36,640 bases of DNA from Candidatus Dadabacteria bacterium. GTDB lineage: Bacteria; Desulfobacterota_D; UBA1144; Nemesobacterales; UBA2774. Positions 11,889 through 26,163 of the stretch are shown in pieces. Every line of letters starts with the position of its first letter. The first letter of the stretch is position 1. The notes beneath the pieces are model-generated. The model ran no database searches, was not told the DNA's origin, and saw only the letters and a program-made list of their open reading frames with translations. Made by a program: the position numbers and the translations under genes. The DNA lies in NCBI GenBank assembly GCA_050247635.1, contig JBFWTW010000003.1:1-36640 (forward strand), read 5' to 3'.

Positions 11889-13466
11889 ATGAGCTGGAAA
11901 GAAATCATAGCGGGAAAAATAGAGGACTTTGAAGAAAACGGCCTTAAGACCGTCGAGGTCGACGGCGCGAAAGTGCTTATAGCGAGGGTGGGGGACGAGT
12001 TTCATGCGCTGAGCGCTTTCTGTACGCATTACGGCGCGCCTCTCGAAAAGGGTGTGCTCAGCGACGGGAGGATCGTGTGCCCGTGGCACCACGCCTGTTT
12101 TAACGTCAAGAACGGGGACATCCTGAATCCCCCGGCGATGAATGCGCTCGTTTCTTACGAAGCGTGGAAGGACGGGGAGAATCTCAAGGTCAGAATTCCG
12201 GAGGATCTGCCTAAAAGGCGGCTGCCGGAAATGACACGGAGGGACCCGAAAGCGGACGACAGAACGTTCGTCATAATCGGCGGCGGCGCGGCGGGGTATT
12301 ACGCTGCACAGAGTTTCAGGGAGAACGGGTTTAAGGGCAGGGTTATCATGATAACGAGAGAGAAAAGACTCCCGTACGACCGCCCGAATTTGAGTAAGGA
12401 TTATCTTCACGGGAAGGCCAAGGACGAGTGGATGCCGCTCAGGGAAGATGCTTTCTACGCCGACCACGACATAGAGATACTAGGGGGGAAGGAGGTGGTG
12501 TCTCTCGAATCGGACACGGGAAAGATTGTCCTGGACGACGGCGGGACGATGGAGCCGGACGGGGTTATCGTCGCGACGGGGGGACGGCCGAGAAAGCCGG
12601 GGATGCAGGGCTCGGACCTCGGGAACATCTTTACGCTCAGGAGCTTCGATGACGCAGACGCCATCATCGCCGCCGCGAAGAATGCGTCGAAGGCTGTCGT
12701 CATAGGCTCGAGCTTTATCGGCATGGAGGCCGCTCACAGCCTGACCGAGCTCGGCATCAAGGTAACTGTGGTCGGCAAGGATGCGATACCCTTCGAGCAT
12801 GTTTTGGGCAAGGAGATAGGGCTTCTACTCAAGCGCGAGCACGAGGGGCGCGGCGTCGTTTTCGAGCTGGAAAAGAACGTTTCCAGGTTTTTCGGCGAGG
12901 GCAATGTGGAGAGGGTTCTACTAAACGACGGGACCGAGATCGAAACCGATATGGTGCTGGTCGGCATCGGGGTCGTCCCGGAGACGGGGTTCGTAAAGGG
13001 TATCGAGCTTCTCCCTGACGGAAGCATCCCGGTGGACGGTTATCTCCACGCTGCGGGCAACGTCTTCGCCGCTGGAGACATTGCTTCGTATCCCGACCTG
13101 AGGTCGGGGACCCGTTCGCGGATAGAGCACTGGCGGGTCGCCATGCAGCAGGGGAGGACGGCAGCGATGAATATGCTGGGTATGGAGGTACGATATGGAG
13201 GGGTGCCGTTTTTCTGGACGGACCAGGCGGGTCTTAACCTCCAGTACGTGGGCCATGCGCCGTCGTGGGACAGCCTCATTACATGGGGGAGCGTCGAGGA
13301 AAAGGAATTTATCACGTTCTATGTATCGAAAGGGGTAGTTCTGGCTGCGTGCGGGAACTGGAGGGACACGGAAATGGCCGCTATAGAGGAACTCCTCAGG
13401 CTGAAGAAAATGCCCTGGCCCGAAGAGCTCGCATCCGGACCGATCGACCTGAAGGCCCTTCTATAA
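11889..13466 (+). CDS. Rieske [2Fe-2S] domain fused to an FAD/NAD(P)H ferredoxin-reductase (AIF-like)
   Basis: CTHYG...CPWHH Rieske ligands; GGGAAG, PYDRPNLSK, GSSFIGME, AAGDIA, RIEHW and VPFFWT. Confidence 0.93.
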   Translation: MSWKEIIAGKIEDFEENGLKTVEVDGAKVLIARVGDEFHALSAFCTHYGAPLEKGVLSDGRIVCPWHHACFNVKNGDILNPPAMNALVSYEAWKDGENLKVRIPEDLPKRRLPEMTRRDPKADDRTFVIIGGGAAGYYAAQSFRENGFKGRVIMITREKRLPYDRPNLSKDYLHGKAKDEWMPLREDAFYADHDIEILGGKEVVSLESDTGKIVLDDGGTMEPDGVIVATGGRPRKPGMQGSDLGNIFTLRSFDDADAIIAAAKNASKAVVIGSSFIGMEAAHSLTELGIKVTVVGKDAIPFEHVLGKEIGLLLKREHEGRGVVFELEKNVSRFFGEGNVERVLLNDGTEIETDMVLVGIGVVPETGFVKGIELLPDGSIPVDGYLHAAGNVFAAGDIASYPDLRSGTRSRIEHWRVAMQQGRTAAMNMLGMEVRYGGVPFFWTDQAGLNLQYVGHAPSWDSLITWGSVEEKEFITFYVSKGVVLAACGNWRDTEMAAIEELLRLKKMPWPEELASGPIDLKALL

Positions 13467-15735: not shown

Positions 15736-17112
15736 TTAGCTGAGGAGGCCCATTTTCTTCATCCTGTACCGGAGATTCTGCCTGTTCATTTTGAGCGCTC
15801 CGGCGGCGCGCGTCTGATTCCAGTTGTTCTGCTCGAGCGTCTTTCTAATTATCCTCTGCTCGATGTCCTCGAGCGAGGAATCGTCGAGGTCGACTTCGAG
15901 CTTCATTTTCCCGTCCTGCTCGTCGAGGTTTACGTTGCCCCCATCCAGATCGAGAGAAATGTAACGCGGGTTAAGCTCCTCTCCTTCGCTGAGTATCATC
16001 GCCCGCTCGACAGTGCTCCTGAGCTCGCGCACGTTGCCCGGCCAGTTGTAGGCGTGGAAGGCGCGCCTCACTTCCTCGGGGACAATCTGTATGGTCTTGT
16101 TAATGTCGTTATTGAAGAACCGGATGAAATGGTCCGTAAGTAGCGGTATGTCTTCCTTTCTTTCCCTGAGACACGGCATTTCGAAGCTGATAACGTTGAG
16201 CCTGTGGTAGAGATCCTGTCTGAATTTGCCGTTTTTCACCTCGTCCCTGAGGTCTTTGTTGGTGGCGGCGATTACCTGCAAATCGACCTTGATATCTTTT
16301 TTCCCCCCGAGCCTCCTGAACTTTCTTTCCTCGACGACCTTGACGAGCTTGGCCTGGAGATTAAGGCTCATGTCCCCTATTTCGTCGAGGAGGATCGTCC
16401 CGCCGTCCGCGTCCTCGAAAATCCCGGACTTCGATTTCTTGGCGTCGGTGAACGAGCCGGCCTCGTATCCGAAGAGCTCGCTTTCGAGGAGGTTCTCGGG
16501 TATCGCGGCGCAGTTCATTTCGAGAAACGGCTTTTCGGCCCTCCGCCCGCTGTAATGCAGCACTTTCGCGGCCAGGCCCTTTCCCGTCCCGGTCTCGCCC
16601 GTGATAAGCACCATGCGCGGATCCTCGGCGGCGAGTTTCGTGAGAAGCTCAGTCAGGTTTTTAATTACCGGGCTCACGCCGATGAGCGCCCCGATGCCGT
16701 GCTTCTGTTTTTCGTGCTTTGTCGCCACGGCCACCGTCTTTTTGAGGTTCGCTGAGTTAAGCGCGTTCTGGAGTATGATCTTTATCTTGTCTACTGGGAA
16801 GGGCTTCTCGACGAAGTCGTACGCGCCGAGCCGCATGGCCGATACGGCCGCTTCGATGTAGCCGTGCGCTGTGATCATTATCGTTATCGGCGGCTGATCG
16901 AGCTCGTTGAGGCTCTTTATGACGTCGAGGCCGTTTATGTCGGGGAGCTTAAGATCGATAATCGCGACCCTGGGCGTCAGCTCGCGGGCGATCTCTATGC
17001 CATCCCTACCGTTGAATGCTGTGAAAACGTCGTACCCGGAATCCGAGAGGTTCTTGGCGAGCTTCTTCGTGAAGAACACCTCGTCGTCTACAAGCAATAT
17101 TGTTTTAGGCAT
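15736..17112 (-). CDS. NtrC-family sigma54-dependent response regulator (receiver, AAA+, Fis-HTH)
   Basis: LVDDE and IIDLKLPD receiver; GETGTGKG; ESELFGYEAGSFTDA; LLDEIG; WPGNVREL; C-terminal HTH NQTRAA...LRYRMKK. Confidence 0.95.
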   Translation of the reverse strand: MPKTILLVDDEVFFTKKLAKNLSDSGYDVFTAFNGRDGIEIARELTPRVAIIDLKLPDINGLDVIKSLNELDQPPITIMITAHGYIEAAVSAMRLGAYDFVEKPFPVDKIKIILQNALNSANLKKTVAVATKHEKQKHGIGALIGVSPVIKNLTELLTKLAAEDPRMVLITGETGTGKGLAAKVLHYSGRRAEKPFLEMNCAAIPENLLESELFGYEAGSFTDAKKSKSGIFEDADGGTILLDEIGDMSLNLQAKLVKVVEERKFRRLGGKKDIKVDLQVIAATNKDLRDEVKNGKFRQDLYHRLNVISFEMPCLRERKEDIPLLTDHFIRFFNNDINKTIQIVPEEVRRAFHAYNWPGNVRELRSTVERAMILSEGEELNPRYISLDLDGGNVNLDEQDGKMKLEVDLDDSSLEDIEQRIIRKTLEQNNWNQTRAAGALKMNRQNLRYRMKKMGLLS

Positions 17113-18440
17113 TATATTACCTCCGTTGTGGTTATTTCCCCTTCGCTGAGGTTAGTGGGCAGAGTGAGCGTAAACCGGCTGCCTTTCTCCTCACGGCTTT
17201 CCACCGTTATCTTTCCTTTGTGGACTTCGATTATGCGTTTTGAAATTGCGAGCCCGAGCCCGGTGCCGGTCTTCTTGGTAGAGAAGAACGGCTCGAATAT
17301 TCTTTCCATATCCATTTGCGTGATGCCCGAGCCCGAATCCGAGACCTCTATGTTGAACGTATCGCCGGAATTGTAGGACCTTATGGTGATCTTCCCGTCC
17401 GGGCCTTCTATGGAATCTATGGCGTTTAAGACGAGATTCATCAGCACCTGCTCCATGAGCTCGAAATCGAGGACTATTTCGCGATCGTCCGGAGCGGGGA
17501 TGACCTCGATGTCTATGGACTTTAGTCTCGCGTTGGAAGATGTGAGGCTGACGACCCTCTCGACGAGCTCGTTCGGGTCGCCGCTTACGAGGCTGACCTC
17601 GCGCGGCTTTGCGAGCTGGAAGAGCTCTTTTATTATATTGTCGAGCCTGCTGACCTCGTTTATTATCTCCTGGATTCGCCCGTCCCTCTCGCCGTACATG
17701 TTCCCCGACTTCAGGTTTTCGAGCGCGACCGCTATGCCCGAGAGCGGGTTTCGGATTTCGTGGGCTATCCTGGTGGCTATCTCTCCGATAGTGGCCAGCT
17801 TCTCGGTCCTGAGAAGCTCTGCATGCTTTTCTTCGAGGTCGGCCTTAACCTCGCTGACCTTATCTTCGAGCACCCGGTTGAACTTCCTCGTCTCCTCGAG
17901 GAGCGTATTGTTGAGCGCGTCCTTGTCCTTGAGCTCGGCGTTTTTACTCTCGAGCTCGTCGTGCTCTCTTTCTATGCTCGAAAGCATCCTGTTGAACGAC
18001 GAGACCAGCTTCGCTATCTCGTCCGTGCCGTTTATGTCCTTCACCCTGTAGGAGTAATCTCCGTCTCTCACGTTTTCGGTAGCCTCGACGAGGCTGAGCA
18101 CGGGCTTTGTGATTCTCCTGGGGAACATCACGGTTACGATGCCGCCGAAGAGTATCGCCAGCGTGGCAACGGAAATGATGTTCATGTATGCAATCGCGAT
18201 CTGTTGGTTGGCCGCTTTTATGGCCCCGAACAGGTTCTCTTTCTCGAAAATATTCCGGGACGCCTCGTTCTCGTCCGTTATGCCGGTGATTATTTCCGTC
18301 AGGGTATATTGCTTGTCGCCGACCATGGATTTGGTGTTCTTGAGACCGTCGATGCTGAACATGCAAAATAAGCTCACGGCGATGATTATCAAAAGCATGA
18401 TGAGATATCCAATCCTTATTTGTTTATCGAGAGTCATCAA
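17112..18440 (-). CDS. Membrane sensor histidine kinase (2 TM, HAMP, coiled coil, HisKA, HATPase)
   Basis: H-box AHEIRNPL, N-box NLVLNAID, DSGSGI, FEPFFSTK and GTGLGL. Confidence 0.95.
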   Translation of the reverse strand: MMTLDKQIRIGYLIMLLIIIAVSLFCMFSIDGLKNTKSMVGDKQYTLTEIITGITDENEASRNIFEKENLFGAIKAANQQIAIAYMNIISVATLAILFGGIVTVMFPRRITKPVLSLVEATENVRDGDYSYRVKDINGTDEIAKLVSSFNRMLSSIEREHDELESKNAELKDKDALNNTLLEETRKFNRVLEDKVSEVKADLEEKHAELLRTEKLATIGEIATRIAHEIRNPLSGIAVALENLKSGNMYGERDGRIQEIINEVSRLDNIIKELFQLAKPREVSLVSGDPNELVERVVSLTSSNARLKSIDIEVIPAPDDREIVLDFELMEQVLMNLVLNAIDSIEGPDGKITIRSYNSGDTFNIEVSDSGSGITQMDMERIFEPFFSTKKTGTGLGLAISKRIIEVHKGKITVESREEKGSRFTLTLPTNLSEGEITTTEVI

Positions 18441-18481
18441 TATCCCCTGTGTGTATAAAATCTGGCTTACAAACTAAAATG

Positions 18482-18496
18482 GCAAGTTTGATGCCA
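18482..18496 (-). promoter_or_regulatory. Sigma54 -24/-12 promoter driving the kinase-regulator operon
   Basis: Minus strand TGGCAT-CAAAC-TTGC with exact GG-N10-GC spacing, about 42 bp before the kinase start. Confidence 0.8.
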
Positions 18497-18602: not shown

Positions 18603-18646
18603 ACTGTACAAATTTAAACAGTCGATACTTTATAATTTTAAACAGT
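18603..18646. promoter_or_regulatory. Tandem upstream activator (enhancer) boxes, pair 1
   Basis: acTGT-acaaatttaa-ACAgt (TGT at 18605) and acTTT-ataattttaa-ACAgt (18629); 24-bp offset; lies between divergent sigma54 promoters. Confidence 0.75.
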
Positions 18647-18721
18647 TGGGGCCCGGCAGCGCCCCCCGTGGTCTTTGTAAGCCTCCATCAACAATCGGGA
18701 TTAGGAGTCTTTCGGCCGGAG

Positions 18722-18736
18722 CGGCATGGTTCTTGC
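18722..18736 (+). promoter_or_regulatory. Sigma54 -24/-12 promoter for the cupredoxin-chaB genes
   Basis: CGGCAT-GGTTC-TTGC with GG-N10-GC spacing. Confidence 0.72.
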
Positions 18737-18807
18737 CCGTTTCGGTGTATGGGTGATTTATAGGCGGAAACGGACCGACTACTGCTGATTAAAAAGGAGA
18801 CCTGCAA

Positions 18808-19236
18808 ATGAAAACGGACAAACGACACACGGCTCACATTATGACTTTAGCCCTTTTAGCAGTTCTTCTCGGCGGACTGTTATCTATTTCGTGCAGGGAA
18901 TACACGGGTAAGGAAAAGGAAAATGTCGTGAGGGTAAAGCTCTCGGAGTACGACATGGAGCTTTTAAACGAGAAGCCGATCGGGCCGGGCCTTACTGTCT
19001 TTGAGGTTACGAACGAGGGCGAAAAGGAGCACAGCTTCGTTATCGAGGGGCTGGACGTCATGCAGAGGCTGGAAGAGAACTTAAAACCCGGCGAAACGAG
19101 GACTATCAGCGTTGAGCTCAAGCCCTCGGGATATAACATCTACTGCCCGATAGACAATCACAAGAACATGGGGATGGCGAGCGTTATACGGATAACGGAG
19201 CCCGGCGGGAAGGATGACAAATCCGGATTATACTAG
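18808..19236 (+). CDS. Cupredoxin-domain lipoprotein with a predicted type-1 copper site
   Basis: AGGAG RBS; lipobox SISC; NEGEKEHSF and YCPIDNHKNMGM give a His/Cys/His/Met ligand set. Confidence 0.85.
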   Translation: MKTDKRHTAHIMTLALLAVLLGGLLSISCREYTGKEKENVVRVKLSEYDMELLNEKPIGPGLTVFEVTNEGEKEHSFVIEGLDVMQRLEENLKPGETRTISVELKPSGYNIYCPIDNHKNMGMASVIRITEPGGKDDKSGLY

Positions 19237-19276
19237 CCCGCGCCCTCACAGGGGAGAGCGGGAAGGAGCGAGCAAC

Positions 19277-19504
19277 ATGCCTTACGACAGAACATCGGAA
19301 TTACCGGATTCGGTAAAGGATAATCTCCCCAAACATGCGCAGGAGATTTATAAGGAAGCATATAACAGCGCCTGGGACGAGTATAAGGACCCGGACGACA
19401 GGCGCGGGGACGCTTCGCGCGAGGAGGTCGCGCACAAAGTGGCCTGGGCGGCCGTGAAAAACAAGTATGAGAAGAAAGACGGCAAATGGGTGAAGAAGGG
19501 CTGA
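19277..19504 (+). CDS. chaB: ChaB family protein
   Basis: MPY...LPDSVKDNLPKHAQEIYKEAYNSAW...REEVAHKVAWAAVK; AGGAG RBS before ATG 19277. Confidence 0.93.
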   Translation: MPYDRTSELPDSVKDNLPKHAQEIYKEAYNSAWDEYKDPDDRRGDASREEVAHKVAWAAVKNKYEKKDGKWVKKG

Positions 19505-19779
19505 CCTTCTTTCGTGGAAATCCGGCCGGGTTTTTTCGGGTGCGGCCGTCCGCTGTCTGATCGGGCGGGATCTTTGCGCCTGTTAGGATTTAGACGGATA
19601 GGCCGGTGTGTGACTGTTTCCTCTCCAAAAATTCAATAGAATTCGCATATTAGAACATTCGCTATTTCACCTTGCCGGCTGGCGTCCCGGCCTCGGCCAG
19701 TCCCGCGTTTACGCGGAAAATGACAACCGCCAAAGTTGTGATAACGTTATTTTTACCTTCTACGTAAGCGAGGCGCGCC

Positions 19780-21432
19780 ATGACCGTTATTGAACAAAGA
19801 TCCGAACGGGACCAAGTGGCTTTCCCGGAGCTTTCCGAAACACAGATTGCCATAATCGCCGGCTTTGCCGGAAAAAGGACCTTCGCTGCCGGCGAAACCT
19901 TGTTCGCAGCGGGCGAGTCGGATTTTAAATTTTATGTCGTCATAAGCGGCGAGGTAGAGATTATCGACGATTCGAGCTGCGAGTATAAAACAGTCGTGGT
20001 TCACCAGGCGGGCGAGTTCACGGGCGACATAGACATGCTCACGGGCCGACCGGCCGTTGTCAGCGCCATTGCCCGTACGGACTGCGAGGTGTATGAGATG
20101 TCGGCGGTTGATCTGAGAAAGCTCCTCGGCGAGGTGCCGTTCATAGGCGACGTTCTACTTCGCGGTTTTCTGATGCGCCGCCAGCTGCTGCTCGAATCGG
20201 GCTTCGTCGGGGTTCGGGTGGTAGGCTCGCGCTATTGCAAGGACACACACAGGATACGAGAGTTTTTGTCGAGGAATTTCGTCCCCTTCAAATGGCTCGA
20301 CCTCGAGAACGATCCCCACGTAAACGAGCTTCTGGAGCATTTTAACGTTTCGGTCGATGACACGCCGGTCGTCGTATGCCCCGACTGCTCGATGTTTAAA
20401 AATCCTTCGAACGTGGCGCTCGCCGAATGCCTCGGCATAAGGAGGGCTGTCTCGCAGGAGGTCTTCGACCTGGTCATAGTCGGCGCGGGGCCCGCCGGGC
20501 TCGCAGCCGCGGTTTACGGGGCTTCGGACGGGCTCAGGACGCTTCTCGTGGACAGCCTCGGCCCGGGAGGACAGGCCGGCACGAGCTCCAAGATCGAAAA
20601 TTACGTTGGATTCCCGGACGGCCTTTCGGGGAGCGATCTTGCGCAGAGGGCCCTTATACAGGCACAGAAGTTCGGCGCTGTGCTCTCGATGCCGACGGAG
20701 GTTTCAAGCCTGGTTTGCGATAACGGGTGCCACAAGCTGAATCTATCGGACGGGGCCGAGGTGCAGGCGAAGAGCATACTCATCTCGACGGGCGCCAGAT
20801 ACAAAAAGCTCGGCGTCGAGGGGTGCGAGCGTTTCGAAAGCTCGGGGGTCTACTATGCGGCTACCGTCGTCGAGGCCCAGATGTGCAGCGGATCGCAGGT
20901 CGTGGTCGTCGGCGGGGGCAACTCGGCCGGGCAGGCCGCAGTGTTTCTCTCGGGCTCCACAAGAAAGGTTATAGTAGCCATAAGGGGCGACGACCTCGGA
21001 AAGAGCATGTCCGAATATCTTGTCCGCAGAATCGAGCAGAGCCCGAACATAGAGGTCAGGTACCGGACCGAGGTATCGGGCGTCAGCGGCGACTGGTGGC
21101 TCGAGACGGTCGATCTCACCAACATTGAAACAGGCGAGCGCGAAACCGTGGAATGCCCGGGGCTCTTCGTTTTCATCGGGGCAATCCCCCATACGGGATG
21201 GCTCGACGGATCGGTAGCACTCGACAAAAAGGGGTTCGTCCTTACCGGAGGACTCGCGAACGATTCCGGGAAATGGCATCTTCCGCGAAGGCCGTTCCTT
21301 CTCGAAACGACGCGCCCGGGCATACTCGCGGCAGGGGACGTGAGGCTCGGGTCCGTGAAGAGGGTGGCGTCCGCGGTGGGCGAAGGCGCCATGGCGGTAC
21401 AGTTCGTACACGAAGTTCTAAAATCGGCTTAG
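19780..21432 (+). CDS. Cyclic-nucleotide-binding domain, glutaredoxin-like linker and thioredoxin-reductase-like flavoprotein
   Basis: cNMP domain (GETLF...GEFTGD); GAGPAG, GGQAGTSSKIENYVGFP, GGGNSAGQAA and AAGDVR...KRVASAVGEG. Confidence 0.9.
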   Translation: MTVIEQRSERDQVAFPELSETQIAIIAGFAGKRTFAAGETLFAAGESDFKFYVVISGEVEIIDDSSCEYKTVVVHQAGEFTGDIDMLTGRPAVVSAIARTDCEVYEMSAVDLRKLLGEVPFIGDVLLRGFLMRRQLLLESGFVGVRVVGSRYCKDTHRIREFLSRNFVPFKWLDLENDPHVNELLEHFNVSVDDTPVVVCPDCSMFKNPSNVALAECLGIRRAVSQEVFDLVIVGAGPAGLAAAVYGASDGLRTLLVDSLGPGGQAGTSSKIENYVGFPDGLSGSDLAQRALIQAQKFGAVLSMPTEVSSLVCDNGCHKLNLSDGAEVQAKSILISTGARYKKLGVEGCERFESSGVYYAATVVEAQMCSGSQVVVVGGGNSAGQAAVFLSGSTRKVIVAIRGDDLGKSMSEYLVRRIEQSPNIEVRYRTEVSGVSGDWWLETVDLTNIETGERETVECPGLFVFIGAIPHTGWLDGSVALDKKGFVLTGGLANDSGKWHLPRRPFLLETTRPGILAAGDVRLGSVKRVASAVGEGAMAVQFVHEVLKSA

Positions 21433-21445
21433 ACGGAGGAACGCG

Positions 21446-21706
21446 ATGGCCAAGGAATGCACGCATCTCGATCAGATAATTGAAGTAGTCCCGAGCTCGG
21501 ACGGATGTGAGGAATGTCTTCAGACGGGGGACAGCTGGGTACATCTGAGGCTGTGCCTTTCGTGCGGCCACGTCGGATGCTGCGACGCCTCCAAGAACAA
21601 GCACGCGACCAAGCATTACACGAAAACGAGCCATCCCATAATTCGCTCCTTCGAGCCGGGCGAGTCGTGGCTCTGGTGCTACCCGGACCAGCTTTTCATG
21701 GAATAA
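21446..21706 (+). CDS. Stand-alone UBP-type zinc finger protein
   Basis: CTHL, CEEC, WVHLRLCLSCGHVGCCD, HATKH and WLWCYPD. Confidence 0.93.
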   Translation: MAKECTHLDQIIEVVPSSDGCEECLQTGDSWVHLRLCLSCGHVGCCDASKNKHATKHYTKTSHPIIRSFEPGESWLWCYPDQLFME

Positions 21707-21719
21707 CGCAGCGTTTTAC

Positions 21720-21759
21720 AGTCCACCTTTATACATCGGCCGCTGTCTAATATTAAACA
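21720..21759. promoter_or_regulatory. Tandem upstream activator boxes, pair 2
   Basis: AGT-ccacctttat-ACA (21720) and TGT-ctaatattaa-ACA (21744); 24-bp offset. Confidence 0.72.
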
Positions 21760-21844
21760 TCTCCGTTCCGGGGGCGACTCCCGGGGCCCAGCTCTTCTGC
21801 TCCAACCTCCTGCAATATCGACATATTCGGAAATTCCCTGAAAA

Positions 21845-21859
21845 TGGCATGCATTTTGC
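21845..21859 (+). promoter_or_regulatory. Sigma54 -24/-12 promoter for the csbD operon
   Basis: TGGCAT-GCATT-TTGC. Confidence 0.85.
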
Positions 21860-21945
21860 GATTAATGCTCTCATAATCGCTTTCCTCCGCGGGCGCAGCG
21901 GCGCCGGGACGGGGCGGTAAAAAAAATATTCAGGAGGCTATTTAT

Positions 21946-22143
21946 ATGAATTGGGATCAGATAGAAGGCAACTGGAAACAGGTTAAGGGAAAGGCTAAAG
22001 AACAGTGGGGCAAGCTGACGGACGACGATCTCGACATTATAAGCGGCAAGCGCGATCAGCTGGTCGGCAAGCTGCAGGAGAGATACGGATACTCGAAGGA
22101 ACAGGCCGAAAAGCTCGCTGACGACTGGTCGAGCAGGCACTGA
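21946..22143 (+). CDS. csbD: CsbD/YjbJ family general stress protein
   Basis: MNWDQIEGNWKQVKGKAKEQWGKLTDDDL...GKLQERYG; AGGAGG RBS. Confidence 0.95.
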   Translation: MNWDQIEGNWKQVKGKAKEQWGKLTDDDLDIISGKRDQLVGKLQERYGYSKEQAEKLADDWSSRH

Positions 22144-22178
22144 TTTAAGGCGGGCCTATTTTTACCCCATATCTCACG

Positions 22179-22215
22179 CCGCCCCTTCCCTCAAGCGGGA
22201 TGGGGCGGTCCTTTT
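22179..22215 (+). terminator. GC-rich hairpin after csbD (terminator or mRNA stabiliser)
   Basis: ccgcccc-t-tccc / ggga-t-ggggcgg stem followed by tcctttt. Confidence 0.55.
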
Positions 22216-22252
22216 CCGTAACTTGTTTGATAACGAATAATGGAGGGAAATC

Positions 22253-22405
22253 ATGGGACTGATATTGTTGATAATACTCGTGCTGCTTTTGATTGGGGCG
22301 CTTCCGACGTGGGGTTACAGCAGGGAGTGGGGCTATTTCCCCGGAGGCATACTCGGGACCGTGCTTATAATCGTCCTGATATTGCTGCTTTTGGGATACT
22401 TATAA
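22253..22405 (+). CDS. DUF3309 family small membrane protein (50 aa)
   Basis: Translated by hand: MGLILLIILVLLLIGALPTWGYSREWGYFPGGILGTVLIIVLILLLLGYL; GGAGG RBS; below the ORF track cut-off. Confidence 0.9.
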   Translation: MGLILLIILVLLLIGALPTWGYSREWGYFPGGILGTVLIIVLILLLLGYL

Positions 22406-22420
22406 AAGGAGTGAGCCGAA

Positions 22421-22930
22421 ATGAAAAAGGAAACACTTAGAGAGCTGTTCAAGAGCGACCTCGAATACCTTTACGACGCCGAAAAAGAGCTCATCGATGC
22501 ATTGCCGATGATGTCCGATGCGGCAGCGACGCCGGAGCTCCGAAACATTTTCCTGGAGCATCTCGAAAGGAGTAACCAGCAGCTCGGCAGGCTGGAGGAG
22601 ATCTTCGGCAATCTGGGTATGGATCCTTCGGGCAGGAAGAGCCGCGGAATCGGCGGACTCATAGCCGAGGGGAAGGAGCTCGTCGAAAAGGGCGAAGAAC
22701 TTCCGGCCGGCGTGCTGGACGTGTCGCTTATCGCCGCCGCCCGAAGGGTAGGGCATTACGAGATCGCCGCCTACGGGACCCTGGCCGCTTACGCGAAGCT
22801 CCTCGGCGACAAAAAATCCGCCGAGCTTCTGGATAAGACCCTGAATGAGGAGGAAGAGGCGGACAGGGAATTCATCCGCCTGGCAGTGGAGAGGGCCAAC
22901 CCCGGGGCCTCCGCCGTCGGCAGGGGCTGA
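22421..22930 (+). CDS. yciF: Ferritin-like DUF892 / YciF family protein
   Basis: LYDAEKEL...HLE...RLEEIF...GLIAEG...HYEIAAYGTL...TLNEEEEAD. Confidence 0.9.
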   Translation: MKKETLRELFKSDLEYLYDAEKELIDALPMMSDAAATPELRNIFLEHLERSNQQLGRLEEIFGNLGMDPSGRKSRGIGGLIAEGKELVEKGEELPAGVLDVSLIAAARRVGHYEIAAYGTLAAYAKLLGDKKSAELLDKTLNEEEEADREFIRLAVERANPGASAVGRG

Positions 22931-22956
22931 GCCAAGCGCCCTGGTGGTGGCTGACC

Positions 22957-23382
22957 ATGAAATCCGCATCGGTATTCACCCGCTTCTCGAAGCGGGTCTC
23001 GCAGGCTGTCGCGCATCCCGCGGCGTTTGCAGCGGCGCTGGGCATTGTCGTAATCTGGAGCGCTACGGGGCCGCTCGTCGGATGGAGCGACACGTGGCAG
23101 CTTGTCATAAACACCGGAACGACGATAGTCACCTTCCTGATGGTGTTCCTGATACAGAACACGCAGAACAGGGATACGGCCGCGATGCAGGTTAAGCTCG
23201 ACGAGCTTATCCGTGCGATAGATGGGGCGCACAACGCGCTTTTAGACCTCGAAGAGCTAGACGAAAAGGAGCTCGAAGCCATAAGGGAACAGTATGAAAC
23301 GCTCGCCCGGGAGGCGAGGGAGAGGCTCGATCAGAGGTCACGGAACGGTGTTCCCGGAGCGCCCGAAGGCGTGAAAAATTAA
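22957..23382 (+). CDS. Low-affinity iron permease family protein (Fet4-like)
   Basis: SDTWQLVINTGTTIVTFLMVFLIQNTQNRD...KLDELI. Confidence 0.92.
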   Translation: MKSASVFTRFSKRVSQAVAHPAAFAAALGIVVIWSATGPLVGWSDTWQLVINTGTTIVTFLMVFLIQNTQNRDTAAMQVKLDELIRAIDGAHNALLDLEELDEKELEAIREQYETLAREARERLDQRSRNGVPGAPEGVKN

Positions 23383-23387
23383 GAGGC

Positions 23388-24446
23388 TTATTCCCGGGCT
23401 TCTTCTATTTTTTCGGCGGCTTCTTTTTTGTCATTGCCGTTCGCCTCGTATTTATTATCCGACTGCTCTTCTTTTCTGCCGGGCTCGTAGCTGAGCTCTG
23501 CGTATATGGGATAATGGTCGGAGCCTATGTCCTGCAAGGTTTCGAGCGTGACGAACCTGAAATATTCCGTGACGAATATGTGGTCTAGCGGGAAGCGTAG
23601 AAACGGCCACCTTACGTGAAACGTATTGAAGAACCCCCTTCCTATCCTCGGGTCGAGCATGCCGCTTATCTTGAGGAAGAGTAGGGTCGTATGAGACCAG
23701 GCGACGTCGTTCAGGTCGCCGGCGACGAGGGTCGGTTTCCTGGATTCCTTGACGCGCTTTCCCACTATCAGGAGCTCCGCGTCCCTTTCGGTCGTATCGC
23801 TCGAGTATTTCGGATTAGGCGGATTCGGGTGCAGGCAGTAGAACTCGACCGGCTCCCCGGACCTTAGCTCGAGCACTGCGAAAACGGACGGCACGTAATC
23901 CTCGACGAGAAAGTCGACCCCGATCCCCCTCGGTTTCAGCCTCGTATAGAAAATCATACCGTAGCCTTTGTCGTCCCGATGCCGGGCCGAGTAGGGGTAG
24001 TCCGCTTCGAGGGGGGAGAGCTTTTCATCCCACCACTCGTCGGGCTCGAGTATGCATATGACGTCCGGATCCTTTTCACGGACGAGCCTGAGAAACCTCT
24101 CATAATCCCTGTTATCTCTGTAGATATTGGATACCAGAACGCTGATCTTTCTGTCGGGGCCCTTTTCGCGCGAGCCGAGCACCTGCTTTCTCGCAAGGCG
24201 AGTGTACGGGAACATCCGCGATACCTGGTATGCGACGGACGCCAGCAGCATGAGGAGTACAAGGTTGTCGCCGAGGCCGCGCTCTTTATAGAGAAGGGAG
24301 TAGAAGGCTATTGTCAGCGCCCCGCCGGCCGCTATCTGCGCCCGCGGGAAATCGAATATCCTTATCCACCAGGCTTCGTGTTTGAGAAGGGGCAGCAATG
24401 TGGCGATTATGAAAATGCATGCCAGGGCGAGAAGAGCGATCTGCAT
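23388..24446 (-). CDS. Membrane-anchored endonuclease/exonuclease/phosphatase (EEP) family protein
   Basis: N-terminal TMs with WWIRIFDFPR; AGDLNDVAWS, PLDHIF and GSDHYP. Confidence 0.9.
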   Translation of the reverse strand: MQIALLALACIFIIATLLPLLKHEAWWIRIFDFPRAQIAAGGALTIAFYSLLYKERGLGDNLVLLMLLASVAYQVSRMFPYTRLARKQVLGSREKGPDRKISVLVSNIYRDNRDYERFLRLVREKDPDVICILEPDEWWDEKLSPLEADYPYSARHRDDKGYGMIFYTRLKPRGIGVDFLVEDYVPSVFAVLELRSGEPVEFYCLHPNPPNPKYSSDTTERDAELLIVGKRVKESRKPTLVAGDLNDVAWSHTTLLFLKISGMLDPRIGRGFFNTFHVRWPFLRFPLDHIFVTEYFRFVTLETLQDIGSDHYPIYAELSYEPGRKEEQSDNKYEANGNDKKEAAEKIEEARE

Positions 24447-24570
24447 TCGGCTGGTATCTCCTTTTAGATAATGATGATGTCATGCAAAAGATGTGTATTC
24501 AACAACTTTTCTTCCCCGCTGGATAAATCGCCGCGGCGGTGCGCGAGCGATGCGGCCCGCCGTGGGCAGC

Positions 24571-24610
24571 TGTTCAATATTCAACAATCGGCATTGTCAT
24601 CTTCACTACA
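24571..24610. promoter_or_regulatory. Tandem upstream activator boxes, pair 3
   Basis: TGT-tcaatattca-ACA (24571) and TGT-catcttcact-ACA (24595); 24-bp offset. Confidence 0.78.
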
Positions 24611-24696: not shown

Positions 24697-24711
24697 TGGT
24701 ACGGATATTGC
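24697..24711 (+). promoter_or_regulatory. Sigma54 -24/-12 promoter for the YHS-BON operon
   Basis: TGGTAC-GGATA-TTGC. Confidence 0.8.
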
Positions 24712-24758
24712 CCCTTAACCAGGCATAAGTAAAATCCGGTTAAACGGAGGTATCGATC

Positions 24759-25118
24759 ATGACTAGATTTAAATCACACTGCGTCGTATGCGGACGCGAA
24801 ATAGAAGATGTAGTAAGGCAATCGTACGAAGGCGAGGAATATCACTTCTGCTGTGAAAAATGCAGAATGGAATTCCTGAGCGATCCTGAAAAATATGCCG
24901 CGAAGATAAGCCGCCCGGAACACGGACAGGAGGCCCATGGGGCCATCAAGTGCTCGGTCTGCGGCGAGAAGGTTTCCGAGGAAGTGGCGGTGCAGCAGGA
25001 ATACCGCGAGGAGCAGTCGGACGAGAAATATTACTTCTGCTGCGAAAAGCACAGGATTGAATTCATCGCAGACCCGATGACGTACAAGGGACTTTCGGGG
25101 AAGCACGTTACCCCCTGA
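24759..25118 (+). CDS. Tandem YHS/TRASH metal-binding domain protein
   Basis: CVVCG...YHFCCEKC...DPEKY and CSVCG...YYFCCEKH...DPMTY; GGAGG RBS. Confidence 0.85.
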   Translation: MTRFKSHCVVCGREIEDVVRQSYEGEEYHFCCEKCRMEFLSDPEKYAAKISRPEHGQEAHGAIKCSVCGEKVSEEVAVQQEYREEQSDEKYYFCCEKHRIEFIADPMTYKGLSGKHVTP

Positions 25119-25151
25119 TTCGAAATAAAATCACGATTAAGGAGGCGCAAC

Positions 25152-25472
25152 ATGTTTAAGAAGAGCCTGATTGCTATGATGGGAATATTCATGCTGATTG
25201 CGGCATATGCCTGCGACGGCGACAAGACGACCGGCGAGGTTATAGACGACACCGTTATAACCTCGACGGTTAAGACGAAGCTCCTGGCCGATTCCGGTGT
25301 CAGCGGTTTTGACATCGACGTCGACACCGACGAGGGAATCGTCGAGCTTAACGGGATTGTGAGCACGGAAGCCGAATCCCAAAAGGCCGAATCGATAGCC
25401 GAGGACGTTGACGGCGTCGTTTCGGTAAAGAACAACCTTACGGTGGACTCATCCACGGCGGACTCTATGTAG
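25152..25472 (+). CDS. Single BON-domain (OsmY-like) lipoprotein
   Basis: Lipobox AYAC; IDDTVITSTVKTKL...IDVDTDEGIVELNG...VDGVVSVKNNL. Confidence 0.92.
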   Translation: MFKKSLIAMMGIFMLIAAYACDGDKTTGEVIDDTVITSTVKTKLLADSGVSGFDIDVDTDEGIVELNGIVSTEAESQKAESIAEDVDGVVSVKNNLTVDSSTADSM

Positions 25473-25498
25473 CCGGGGATTAATAACAGGAGGCGGCA

Positions 25499-25633
25499 AT
25501 GCAGCTCAATCTGGAACTGACACCGGTAGTATCGCTGATTGCGGGAGTTCTGATTCTGATATTCCCACGAATACTCAACTACGTGATAGCGATATACCTG
25601 ATAATCATAGGTATTCTCGGCCTCGTCGGCTGA
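25499..25633 (+). CDS. DUF3096 family small membrane protein (44 aa)
   Basis: Translated by hand: MQLNLELTPVVSLIAGVLILIFPRILNYVIAIYLIIIGILGLVG; AGGAGG RBS. Confidence 0.9.
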   Translation: MQLNLELTPVVSLIAGVLILIFPRILNYVIAIYLIIIGILGLVG

Positions 25634-25667
25634 GAAACGGAAAGATAAACACATGAGGAAACATAAG

Positions 25668-25829
25668 ATGACGAAACTTAGACGATTTCTTTTCCTTGTA
25701 CTCCTCGGGATTTCGGCCGCAGGCATTTATGCATGCCCCGATAACGACGGGCCCGCCGAAAGAGCCGGGGAGCGAATTGATGACGCCGCCGAAGATGTAG
25801 GCGACAAGATGGAAGACGCTGCGGATTAG
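25668..25829 (+). CDS. Small acidic helical lipoprotein (53 aa)
   Basis: Translated by hand: MTKLRRFLFLVLLGISAAGIYAC-PDNDGPAERAGERIDDAAEDVGDKMEDAAD; GAGGA RBS; lipobox IYAC. Confidence 0.82.
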   Translation: MTKLRRFLFLVLLGISAAGIYACPDNDGPAERAGERIDDAAEDVGDKMEDAAD

Positions 25830-26001
25830 GAAAGACAAGCAGTTTATAACAAATGGCTGAATGCAGTAAAAGTGGACGGCTTGGCGTAACAACCGGTTGA
25901 GACGACAGGAGAGAGGGTGGATGGATATGACGAATATCGAACCTGCTCTCTTCGTCTCGCCGGCCGCCTGAAAAAGAAAATAAAGCGAGGAGGTGTTTAA
26001 C

Positions 26002-26163
26002 ATGCTGCACTGGACTCTGGTTTTTCTGGTGATTGCGATAATAGCGGCAGTGCTGGGGTTCTCCGGAATAGCGGGGGCTGCGGCGGGTATAGCCAAGATT
26101 CTGTTTATCGTATTTCTGGTGATATTTATAGTTTCACTGATATTCGGCAGACGCGCAGTTTAG
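26002..26163 (+). CDS. ytjA: DUF1328 / YtjA family small membrane protein (53 aa)
   Basis: Translated by hand: [53 protein letters not shown]; AGGAGGT RBS. Confidence 0.92.

What the first reader, a model, noticed from the sequence alone, without database searches (positions are those of the whole stretch)
18603..24610. Three paired TGT-N10-ACA enhancer sites with an identical 24-bp offset: the probable binding motif of the activator
Seen: pair 1 is TGT-acaaatttaa-ACA (18605) and TTT-ataattttaa-ACA (18629). Pair 2 is AGT-ccacctttat-ACA (21720) and TGT-ctaatattaa-ACA (21744). Pair 3 is TGT-tcaatattca-ACA (24571) and TGT-catcttcact-ACA (24595). All three offsets are exactly 24 bp. Each pair ends about 78-87 bp upstream of a plus-strand sigma54 -24 element. 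One site per pair fits cTGTnnAAwwTTnAACA. Known: NifA binds TGT-N10-ACA, and enhancer-binding proteins commonly use tandem strong and weak sites. Inference: this is the operator code of the 15736-17112 regulator, which would allow prediction of the whole regulon.
Basis: partly seen in the sequence, partly recalled or inferred. Interest (0 to 1): 0.85.

Follow-up and report, generated by a model that had tools for sequence, protein, structure and literature searches.

The report
Paired activator sites before three stress operons
Three sigma-54 promoters in front of small stress-protein operons each carry a conserved pair of activator-binding sites 24 bp apart, an ordinary kind of enhancer whose spacing is shared by a whole subfamily of regulators in this lineage.

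Summary
Each pair ends 78-87 bp before a -24/-12 element. In dinucleotide shuffles such a pair arose in 6, 0 and 1 of 20000 trials.

The strong sites fit TGTnnAAWWTTnAACA. That pattern occurs three times in the 3.1-Mb genome, only here. The sites are conserved in related genomes. In the weak sites only the outer xGT/ACA triplets are kept.

TGT-N10-ACA with a 24-bp offset is not this regulator's private code. Genome-wide, 9 of 10 such pairs lie 73-90 bp before sigma-54-like promoters, and six of them have other inner bases. Specificity must therefore lie in the inner 10 bp.

The neighbouring response regulator (15736-17112) is the likeliest binder:
- Pair 1 lies between divergent sigma-54 promoters, and one of them drives the regulator's own operon.
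- This layout recurs in three other genera.

Binding itself is only inferred. Another genus keeps sigma-54 stress operons with like sites but has no ortholog of this regulator, so a paralog remains a real rival.

The predicted regulon is small: CsbD, DUF892, BON, YHS and DUF1328 operons, plus one remote DUF892 gene. This is a new member of a known kind.

The parts
15736..17112 (-). Response regulator of NtrC type (REC, sigma-54 AAA+ domain, Fis-type HTH). Its loop motif is GSFTDA rather than GAFTGA, and its HTH reads NWNQTRAAGALKMNRQNLRYRMKKMG.
   Evidence: Pfam hits: Response_reg 1.3e-23, Sigma54_activat 6.9e-65, HTH_8 8.3e-13. Sequence. Loop motif. It scores below every NCBIfam equivalog cut-off; the best is AtoC at 415 against 714.
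17112..18440 (-). Sensor histidine kinase (HAMP, HisKA, HATPase_c), overlapping the regulator gene by one base.
   Evidence: Pfam; sequence.
18481..18496 (-). Sigma-54 -24/-12 element TGGCATCAAACTTGCC in front of the kinase/regulator operon. Pair 1 starts 124 and 148 nt upstream of it.
   Evidence: It is conserved in the four same-genus relatives aligned. A counterpart exists in G010, G016 and G023.
18605..18620 (.). Strong site 1, TGTACAAATTTAAACA.
   Evidence: All 16 columns are invariant in 6 genomes.
18629..18644 (.). Weak site 1, TTTATAATTTTAAACA, 24 bp from strong site 1.
   Evidence: The right half and the outer T.T are conserved.
18722..18737 (+). Sigma-54 -24/-12 element of promoter P1, CGGCATGGTTCTTGCC.
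18808..19504 (+). P1 genes: a cupredoxin-like protein (142 aa; Pfam hit just below cut-off) and ChaB (96 aa). The next genes, cNMP-binding thioredoxin-reductase-like (19780-21432) and zf-UBP (21446-21706), may or may not belong to the same transcript.
   Evidence: Pfam and NCBIfam. A hairpin followed by a T-run lies just after ChaB, and I saw no sigma-54 element in 19504-19780 (read by eye). G010 lacks the two later genes at this place.
21720..21735 (.). Weak site 2, AGTCCACCTTTATACA.
   Evidence: AGTCCAC and TACA are invariant in 5 genomes and the inner bases are free.
21744..21759 (.). Strong site 2, TGTCTAATATTAAACA.
21845..21860 (+). Sigma-54 -24/-12 element of promoter P2, TGGCATGCATTTTGCG.
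   Evidence: Almost the same element stands before the DUF1328-CsbD operons of genus g3.
21946..23382 (+). P2 operon: CsbD, DUF3309, DUF892 and a low-affinity iron permease.
   Evidence: Pfam.
24571..24586 (.). Strong site 3, TGTTCAATATTCAACA, a near-perfect palindrome.
24595..24610 (.). Weak site 3, TGTCATCTTCACTACA.
   Evidence: TGT and ACA are conserved and the inner bases vary.
24697..24712 (+). Sigma-54 -24/-12 element of promoter P3, TGGTACGGATATTGCC.
24759..26163 (+). P3 operon: a YHS-domain protein, a BON-domain protein, DUF3096, a 58-aa protein with no family, and DUF1328.
   Evidence: Pfam. One RNA-library contig from a 90-95% relative spans 24760-26087. That is a weak hint, because a contig across genes does not show a single transcript.

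Best explanation
The six sites are three tandem upstream activator sequences of sigma-54 promoters. Each consists of a high-affinity 16-bp palindrome (TGTnnAAWWTTnAACA) and, exactly 24 bp away centre to centre, a low-affinity site that keeps little more than the outer xGT/ACA triplets.

The likeliest mechanism (inferred, by analogy with NtrC-type activators):
1. A dimer of the neighbouring response regulator (15736-17112) binds the strong site through its Fis-type HTH.
2. After the adjacent kinase phosphorylates it (probably at D53, read by eye), a second dimer is recruited cooperatively to the weak site.
3. The DNA-bound tetramer nucleates the AAA+ ring.
4. The ring loops over about 100 bp to the sigma-54 holoenzyme at -24/-12 and opens the promoter.

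Pair 1 serves two divergent promoters, so the kinase/regulator operon is autoregulated. The output is a small regulon of stress-type proteins: CsbD, DUF892, BON, YHS, DUF1328, DUF3309, ChaB and an iron permease.

The TGT/ACA frame and the 24-bp spacing are common to a subfamily of regulators (GxFTDA loop, NWNQT helix). The inner 10 bp distinguish this regulator's sites from those of its paralogs.

Shown here: the sites, their non-random occurrence, their geometry, their conservation and the gene content. Inferred: who binds, cooperativity, and phosphorylation control.
For: Sites and geometry:
- The sites and promoters are present as described.
- rpoN is present in the genome.
- The regulator has REC, a sigma-54 AAA+ domain and HTH_8.
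- Shuffles give a 24-bp pair in 6, 0 and 1 of 20000 trials.
- Of the 193 exact TGT-N10-ACA sites in the genome, partners with at most one frame mismatch number 11 at offset 24. Every other offset from 10 to 60 gives 0-7.
- 9 of the 10 pairs at offset 24 end 73-90 bp before a sigma-54-like element.

Conservation in 5-6 same-genus genomes, as invariant columns:
- strong sites 42/48
- promoter elements 41/48
- weak-site outer triplets 17/18
- weak-site inner bases 11/30
- other intergenic columns 147/429

Link to the local regulator:
- Divergent sigma-54 promoters flank a site next to the kinase/regulator genes in G010, G016 and G023, where the regulator is 74, 65 and 63% identical.
- In G010, 3 of 4 enhancers in the syntenic locus keep a TGT at +24.
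- The HTH recognition stretch NRQNLRYRMKKMG is unchanged in 7 of 8 orthologs. Paralogs read TREVLRYRMKKWG and TRQILRNRMIKMD.
- A paralog (G005:C3, the C50 type) sits beside pairs of a different core, TGTAC..GTACA, also 24 bp apart. This shows one regulator, one core, same grammar.

Specificity of the core:
- I trained a matrix of the inner 10 bp only on sites from the other genera. It ranks the three strong sites 1, 2 and 6 of 193.
- Ranks 3 and 5 lie 78 nt before a sigma-54 element of a DUF892 gene.
- The motif followed by a sigma-54 element gave 27 hits in 13 of 41 related genomes, against 1 hit for the reversed control.

Loop variant:
- GAFTDA is listed among loop variants expected to keep activity, and it is the loop of the DVU2106 regulator (passages of PMC4641369).
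Against: - No binding or expression experiment exists. The assignment rests on adjacency and co-conservation.
- In genus g3, 4 genomes (G008, G017, G022, G024) of the 6 searched have a CsbD hit. Their DUF1328-CsbD operons have sigma-54 promoters and tandem sites at -126/-102. G008 even has TGTCCGATATTAAACA.
- Yet no regulator above the 57-59% paralog level was found in g3. G008's best hit is the ortholog of the other paralog (87% to the C342 type).
- In G023, G013 and G021 the perfect palindrome TGTTGAAAATTCAACA lies between divergent sigma-54 promoters next to a different kinase/regulator pair (40% identity) with porin and antiporter genes.
- The pattern gives no excess at 1 or 2 mismatches over a reversed control: 5 and 77 against 4 and 83. 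Its predictive reach is therefore short.
- The genome is 92.8% complete in 357 contigs. One activator gene (C97) is cut before its DNA-binding domain.
- 24 bp is about 2.3 helical turns (my arithmetic). The two dimers would therefore not face the same side, which is unlike the textbook NtrC arrangement as I recall it.
Confidence: 0.62

Rival explanations
1. The sites are real sigma-54 enhancers, but the protein that binds them is, or is also, a paralogous response regulator of the same GxFTDA/NWNQT subfamily. The widely conserved C342 type is the main candidate; no enhancer was found next to its ortholog in G005. On this view the local kinase/regulator operon is merely one more target, or it shares the sites.
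For: - Four genus g3 genomes (G008, G017, G022, G024) keep the sigma-54 stress operons and tandem sites, but no ortholog of the local regulator was found there. They do have the C342 and C50 types.
- The three paralogs share R..LR.RM in the recognition stretch.
- No enhancer was found next to the C342-type gene in G005. Its targets must therefore lie elsewhere.
- A 40%-identical regulator in G023 sits beside a perfect copy of the consensus.
Against: - Wherever the local type exists (g1, g5, g2), it is adjacent to the cluster, with the strong motif in its own divergent promoter.
- Apart from G008, the proximal sites of the g3 genomes lack the AAWWTT core: TGTCCTTTTCTAAACA, TGTCTGGAATGGAACA and TGTCCGAAACTGAACT. 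A different binder there would fit this.
- The C50 type is linked to a different core.
Confidence: 0.25
2. Only the three strong palindromes are functional. The weak partners 24 bp away are incidental and one dimer per promoter suffices, as reported for NifA at a single TGT-N10-ACA.
For: - The weak sites match the inner consensus poorly.
- Some enhancers in G010 and G008 show no recognisable partner, for example TGTCCGATTTTTAACA at -101 in G010.
Against: - The outer triplets of the weak sites are invariant in 17 of 18 columns, while their inner bases drift at the background rate, 11/30 against 147/429.
- Offset 24 is the one enriched offset genome-wide.
- Across 41 genomes, 24 of 145 exact double sites with gaps of 0-30 have a gap of exactly 8. 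The reversed control gives 8 of 137. In G010 all 7 of 7 do (sums are mine).
Confidence: 0.08
3. The palindromes bind a factor that is not a sigma-54 activator (a repressor or a nucleoid protein that likes AT-rich DNA), or they are chance.
For: The cores are AT-rich (AATATT, AAATTT) and would suit many DNA-bending proteins. Nothing here shows who binds.
Against: - The position is fixed, about 100 and 124 nt before the -24 element, at 10 promoters in this genome and in other genera.
- Shuffles almost never give such pairs.
- The reversed-pattern control gave 1 hit against 27.
Confidence: 0.04

Closest known systems
NifA upstream activator sequence (TGT-N10-ACA)
   Same: Same outer frame, TGT-N10-ACA. 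Same position, roughly 100 bp before a -24/-12 promoter. Action through sigma-54 (frame as quoted in a passage of PMC6296734).
   Different: The regulator here has a receiver domain, not a GAF domain. It scores 319.5 against the nifA model's cut-off of 528.85. The sites come as fixed 24-bp tandems, and an AT-rich inner core is conserved. The targets are stress proteins, not nif genes.
NtrC-class response-regulator activators (closest solved chains: 4l4u, 1ny5, 3dzd, deposited as 'Transcriptional regulator (NtrC family)'; also ZraR 1ojl)
   Same: Same REC, AAA+ and Fis-type HTH architecture, with best PDB matches at E 3.5e-96 to 3.3e-85. A two-component partner kinase, tandem dimer sites and an autoregulated operon are also shared.
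   Different: It is below every named equivalog cut-off. The loop is GSFTDA rather than GAFTGA. The spacing is 24 bp, about 2.3 turns, whereas I recall about three turns for NtrC at glnAp2; I did not check that figure here.
Sigma-54 activator motifs of Desulfovibrio vulgaris (Kazakov et al. 2015, PMC4641369; Rajeev et al. 2011, PMC3333781)
   Same: Many paralogous activators in one genome. Several motif groups are built from TGT and ACA half sites. The GAFTDA loop variant is listed there. Regulon inference rests on adjacency and autoregulation (passages seen).
   Different: The separations quoted there are 9, 11 or 12 bp, not 10. The word 'tandem' does not occur in that paper's main text. None of the regulons listed in the passages I saw contains CsbD, BON or DUF892 genes. 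Its supplements could not be seen.
DVU3303-3305 'general stress' three-component system of D. vulgaris (PMC3333781, passages)
   Same: A sigma-54 response regulator that activates its own operon and a neighbouring divergent operon of small membrane and stress proteins.
   Different: That system includes a Lon-protease response regulator and UspA-type proteins. No such genes are in this window. I did not test orthology.

Membership tests
Sigma-54 promoter with upstream enhancer (bEBP-dependent transcription) | A -24 GG and a -12 GC element with fixed spacing, correctly placed before a gene. | tested here: met
   Elements start at 18722, 21845 and 24697 on the plus strand and at 18496 on the minus strand. 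41 of 48 columns are invariant in relatives.
Sigma-54 promoter with upstream enhancer (bEBP-dependent transcription) | The genome encodes sigma-54 (rpoN). | tested here: met
   One Sigma54_DBD match at E 4.9e-57 on contig C56.
Sigma-54 promoter with upstream enhancer (bEBP-dependent transcription) | Activator sites roughly 80-150 bp upstream, conserved in position. | tested here: met
   Sites start 93-126 nt before the three plus-strand elements and 124/148 nt before the minus-strand one. Positions are the same in relatives.
Sigma-54 promoter with upstream enhancer (bEBP-dependent transcription) | Activator binding to the sites, and ATP-dependent open-complex formation. | not testable with these tools
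   This needs EMSA or footprinting and in vitro transcription, or reporters.
NtrC-family response-regulator activator | Receiver domain, sigma-54 interaction AAA+ domain and C-terminal Fis-type HTH. | tested here: met
   Pfam Response_reg, Sigma54_activat, AAA_lid_14 and HTH_8. Best solved relatives are NtrC-family chains.
NtrC-family response-regulator activator | A GAFTGA loop for contact with sigma-54. | tested here: inconclusive
   The loop reads GSFTDA. F and T are kept and the second G is D. GAFTDA is listed among variants expected to stay active (PMC4641369 passage). GSFTDA itself was found in no relevant paper.
Named equivalogs (AtoC, NtrC, NtrX, ZraR) | Score above the curated NCBIfam cut-off. 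| tested here: not met
   AtoC 415.4 against 714, NtrC 366.1 against 558.6, NtrX 358.5 against 600, ZraR 332.6 against 760.
NifA | N-terminal GAF domain and a score above the nifA model's cut-off. | tested here: not met
   The N-terminal domain is a receiver domain and no GAF hit was listed. The nifA score is 319.5 against 528.85, and only residues 115-455 match.

The most novel reading that the evidence does not exclude
A subfamily of NtrC-type response regulators in this lineage (GxFTDA loop, NWNQT helix) uses one rigid enhancer grammar. Two TGT-N10-ACA dimer sites lie exactly 24 bp apart, a non-integral number of helical turns. The pair ends about 75-90 bp before the -24 element. Target choice is written only in the inner 10 bp.

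One member, with its own kinase, puts under sigma-54 control a set of proteins that, as I recall, belong to the RpoS, SigB or EcfG general stress regulons in model bacteria: CsbD, BON/OsmY-like, DUF892/YciE-like, DUF1328/YtjA-like and, in G010, an ElaB-like protein and MscS channels.
Probability: 0.45. Interest if true: 0.55.

Novelty: new member of a known kind. Interest (0 to 1): 0.42.

Why it matters
The result gives a concrete, testable regulatory map for an uncultured lineage. The nearest labelled record is a Candidatus Dadabacteria MAG. A full-text search for Dadabacteria together with 'sigma-54' found no paper.

The map has four promoters, six sites, one kinase/regulator pair and about a dozen small stress proteins of unknown function that would be co-induced.

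The wider point is practical. In this family the 24-bp tandem frame marks sigma-54 enhancers with little background, so regulons of several paralogous activators can be sorted by the inner bases alone.

The fixed 24-bp spacing is also a usable handle for studying how two DNA-bound dimers seed an AAA+ ring.

Tried and rejected
- Relaxed consensus. At 1 or 2 mismatches the pattern shows no excess over a reversed control. Two of the five 1-mismatch hits were looked at closely. C108, before a PII/glnB-like gene, is a TGC..GCA site that I read as NtrC-like, as is the 2-mismatch hit on C135. C1, C32 and C48 have no convincing promoter. None was taken as a regulon member.
- Upstream genes. I found no sigma-54 element before the Rieske oxidoreductase gene at 11889, although its G010 homolog has one with the motif.
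- Adjacency of the other enhancers. None of the six other 24-bp enhancers lies on a contig with an activator gene in this fragmented assembly. I used G005 instead.
- Failed scripts. Searches printed nothing because I searched for GAFTGA; one search corrected this. The naive DNA-binding-domain comparison with the G023:C11 protein was misaligned, and I do not use it.
- RNA evidence. Three RNA-labelled runs hold parts of the stretch as contigs from 90-95% relatives. Contigs cannot show starts, strands or levels. Stretches without cover, including the enhancers, mean nothing.
- General stress sigma. The idea that sigma-54 replaces one was not pursued. The genome has 24 sigma-70-family matches, and I did not classify them.
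- IHF. Conserved blocks between enhancer and promoter (for example GTAA about 50 nt upstream in P1 and P3) did not match my recalled IHF consensus. I left them unexplained.
- DVU3305. This regulator has a different gene context, and I did not pursue it as an ortholog.

Full report
**The observation**

Searches show the six 16-mers at the stated coordinates, with all three offsets at 24 bp. Each strong site is preceded by C and fits TGTnnAAWWTTnAACA. Site 3 (TGTTCAATATTCAACA) is a near-perfect palindrome.

Plus-strand -24/-12 elements start at 18722, 21845 and 24697. The pairs end 78, 86 and 87 bp before them.

A fourth element on the minus strand (18496-18481, TGGCATCAAACTTGCC) faces the kinase/regulator operon. 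Pair 1 therefore sits between two divergent sigma-54 promoters.

**Chance**

- The window has 7 exact TGT-N10-ACA sites, and 4 of them are in the three enhancers.
- The fitted pattern occurs 3 times in the 3.12-Mb, 357-contig genome, only here. That count is circular, because the pattern was fitted to these sites.
- Dinucleotide shuffles of the three -200..-41 regions are not circular. They gave an exact site with a partner of at most one mismatch at +/-24 in 6, 0 and 1 of 20000 trials.
- I also trained a matrix of the inner ten bases only on eleven sites from the syntenic loci of three other genera. It ranks the window's strong sites 1, 2 and 6 among all 193 exact-frame sites of the genome.

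**Genes**

The regulator (15736-17112, minus strand) has a receiver domain, a sigma-54 AAA+ domain and a Fis-type HTH. The overlapping upstream gene is a HAMP histidine kinase.

- P1 is followed by a cupredoxin-like protein and ChaB.
- A hairpin with a T-run follows ChaB, and I saw no sigma-54 element before the cNMP-binding thioredoxin-reductase-like gene and the zf-UBP gene. Their membership of the P1 transcript is open.
- P2 drives CsbD, DUF3309, DUF892 and a low-affinity iron permease.
- P3 drives a YHS protein, a BON protein, DUF3096, a 58-aa protein with no family, and DUF1328.
- rpoN is present in the genome.

**Conservation**

The regulator has orthologs at 96, 95, 91 and 90% identity in four same-genus genomes. 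It has orthologs at 74, 65 and 63% in G010, G016 and G023. All of these lie above a plateau of paralogs at 57-59%. Gene order around it is kept.

In alignments of 5-6 same-genus genomes, the invariant columns are:

| Region | Invariant columns |
|---|---|
| Strong sites | 42 of 48 |
| Promoter elements | 41 of 48 |
| Weak sites, all columns | 28 of 48 |
| Weak sites, outer triplets | 17 of 18 |
| Weak sites, inner bases | 11 of 30 |
| Other intergenic columns | 147 of 429 |

So the weak sites are under selection, but only for the frame. The kin are close, and this is not an independent-sample statistic.

In G010 the syntenic enhancers again show TGT at +24 in 3 of 4 cases. Site starts fall at about -124/-100 or -113/-89 from the promoter element.

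**The 24-bp spacing is a family grammar**

- Among the genome's 193 exact sites, partners with at most one frame mismatch number 11 at offset 24. Every other offset from 10 to 60 gives 0-7.
- The 10 pairs at offset 24 include the three in the window and six on other contigs: C53, C82, C110, C132 and two on C145. Nine of the 10 end 73-90 bp before a sigma-54-like element.
- The six others have different inner bases, mostly TGTAC..GTACA. They precede genes for proteins whose N-termini look like signal peptides, by eye.
- Across 41 related genomes there are 145 exact double sites with gaps of 0-30, and 24 of them have a gap of exactly 8. The reversed control gives 8 of 137. In G010 all 7 of 7 have that gap (sums are mine).

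**Who binds**

The genome has 15 sigma-54 activator matches. Three form a subfamily with a GxFTDA loop and an NWNQT helix: the local gene and the genes on C50 and C342.

For the local regulator:
- In G005 the C50-type paralog lies next to two TGTAC..GTACA pairs, also 24 bp apart. These correspond to C145 in this genome. So at least one paralog has its own core next to its own gene.
- The local type always sits beside the stress cluster, with the strong motif in its own divergent promoter.
- Its recognition stretch is unchanged in 7 of 8 orthologs.

Against exclusivity:
- Four genus g3 genomes (G008, G017, G022, G024) have the DUF1328-CsbD operon with nearly the same promoter element and tandem sites at about -126/-102. 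No local-type regulator was found there. G008's best hit is 87% identical to the C342 type.
- In G023, G013 and G021 the palindrome TGTTGAAAATTCAACA lies between divergent sigma-54 promoters beside a 40%-identical kinase/regulator pair. Its neighbours include a 447-aa protein I read as porin-like, a 226-aa protein I read as cytochrome-like, and a 446-aa membrane protein I read as an antiporter. These names were read by eye and not scanned.

**Regulon**

- Motif followed by a promoter element gave 27 hits in 13 of 41 genomes, against 1 control hit. In the same-genus genomes all hits are at this locus.
- In this genome the cross-genus matrix adds one candidate. A DUF892 gene on C37, with a near-identical copy on C303, has a sigma-54 element 78 nt after TGTATAAATTCTTACA.
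- The promoter of that gene is conserved in four relatives. Its two sites, again 24 bp apart, are degenerate there.
- G010 has two further enhancers of this kind. One precedes a Rieske oxidoreductase with two MscS-like channels. The other precedes an ElaB-like protein and neighbours. These names were read by eye and not scanned.

**Comparison with what is known**

- NifA is cited as recognising a single TGT-N10-ACA (passage of PMC6296734).
- Kazakov et al. describe Desulfovibrio activator motifs with TGT and ACA half sites 9, 11 or 12 bp apart. They list GAFTDA among tolerated loops (passages of PMC4641369).
- The regulator here is not NifA and not any named equivalog.
- Its nearest solved relatives are NtrC-family chains 4l4u, 1ny5 and 3dzd.
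- A search for Dadabacteria with 'sigma-54' returned no paper.
- Supplementary tables of the two Desulfovibrio papers were not available and might hold a related motif.

**Verdict**

The feature is real and is a normal kind of bacterial enhancer. What is particular to this regulator is the inner core, not the frame or the spacing. The regulator assignment is likely but untested, and a credible paralog rival remains.

Noticed in passing
G000 contigs C53:10205, C82:547, C110:8961, C132:691, C145:1052, C145:2755 (also C123:7542): Six further TGT-N10-ACA pairs lie exactly 24 bp apart, each 73-90 bp before a strong sigma-54-like element. Their inner bases differ, mostly TGTAC..GTACA. The first genes downstream encode proteins whose N-termini look like signal peptides, by eye. 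C123 has a similar pair whose partner has two frame mismatches.
   Followed up: partly
window 15736-17112; G000 C50:561-1931 and C342:4-1314: Three paralogous response regulators carry GSFTDA or GAFTDA instead of GAFTGA, and share an NWNQT helix in the HTH. The other activators in which my regular expression found the loop (7 of 15 gene matches) read GAFTGA.
   Followed up: partly
G000 C37:4505-5140 and C303:440-1089: Two near-identical copies exist of a DUF892 gene with its sigma-54 promoter and upstream site. Their downstream neighbours differ. This may be strain heterogeneity in the bin (contamination 8.26%) or a true duplication.
   Followed up: partly
G000 C108:4739-4860 and C135:503-640: TGC-N11-GCA and TGT..GCA palindromes with AT-rich cores lie about 100 nt before sigma-54 elements. 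On C108 the gene downstream begins like a PII (GlnB) protein. I read these as NtrC-type nitrogen sites, not part of this regulon.
   Followed up: partly
window 18480-18496: The kinase promoter element is itself palindromic (TGGCAAGTTTGATGCCA). It scores as a sigma-54 element on both strands. The minus-strand reading matches the consensus better and faces the gene.
   Followed up: no
L059 (G023:C11:43000-54000); also G013:C102 and G021:C1: A second kinase/regulator pair (40% identical, GSFTDA loop) is flanked on both sides by divergent sigma-54 promoter pairs. These share the perfect palindromes TGTTGAAAATTCAACA and TGTTGAAAATACAACA.
   Followed up: partly
L041 / L062 (G006:C18): This close relative's locus has many frameshifts across most genes, the regulator included. 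That looks like assembly error rather than gene decay.
   Followed up: no
rows (G008, G017, G022, G030, G037, G040): A second class of double site has a 4-bp gap (offset 20), often with an AAAT or AATT spacer. By my hand count it appears 7 times among the rows listed; 140 rows were not listed.
   Followed up: no
window 19504-19540: A GC hairpin followed by a T-run lies directly after ChaB. It may end the P1 transcript before the cNMP-binding oxidoreductase gene.
   Followed up: no
window 18865-19472, 21911-22092, 22466-22865, 24760-26087: One metatranscriptome-labelled run (X20) has contigs from a 90-95% relative over parts of all three operons. One is a 1341-nt contig that begins at the YHS start codon and runs into DUF1328.
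   Followed up: partly
record titles: Records of the same genus carry three different labels: Candidatus Dadabacteria, uncultured Spirochaetia and Thermodesulfobacteriota. The taxonomic name of this genome is therefore not settled by these titles.
   Followed up: no
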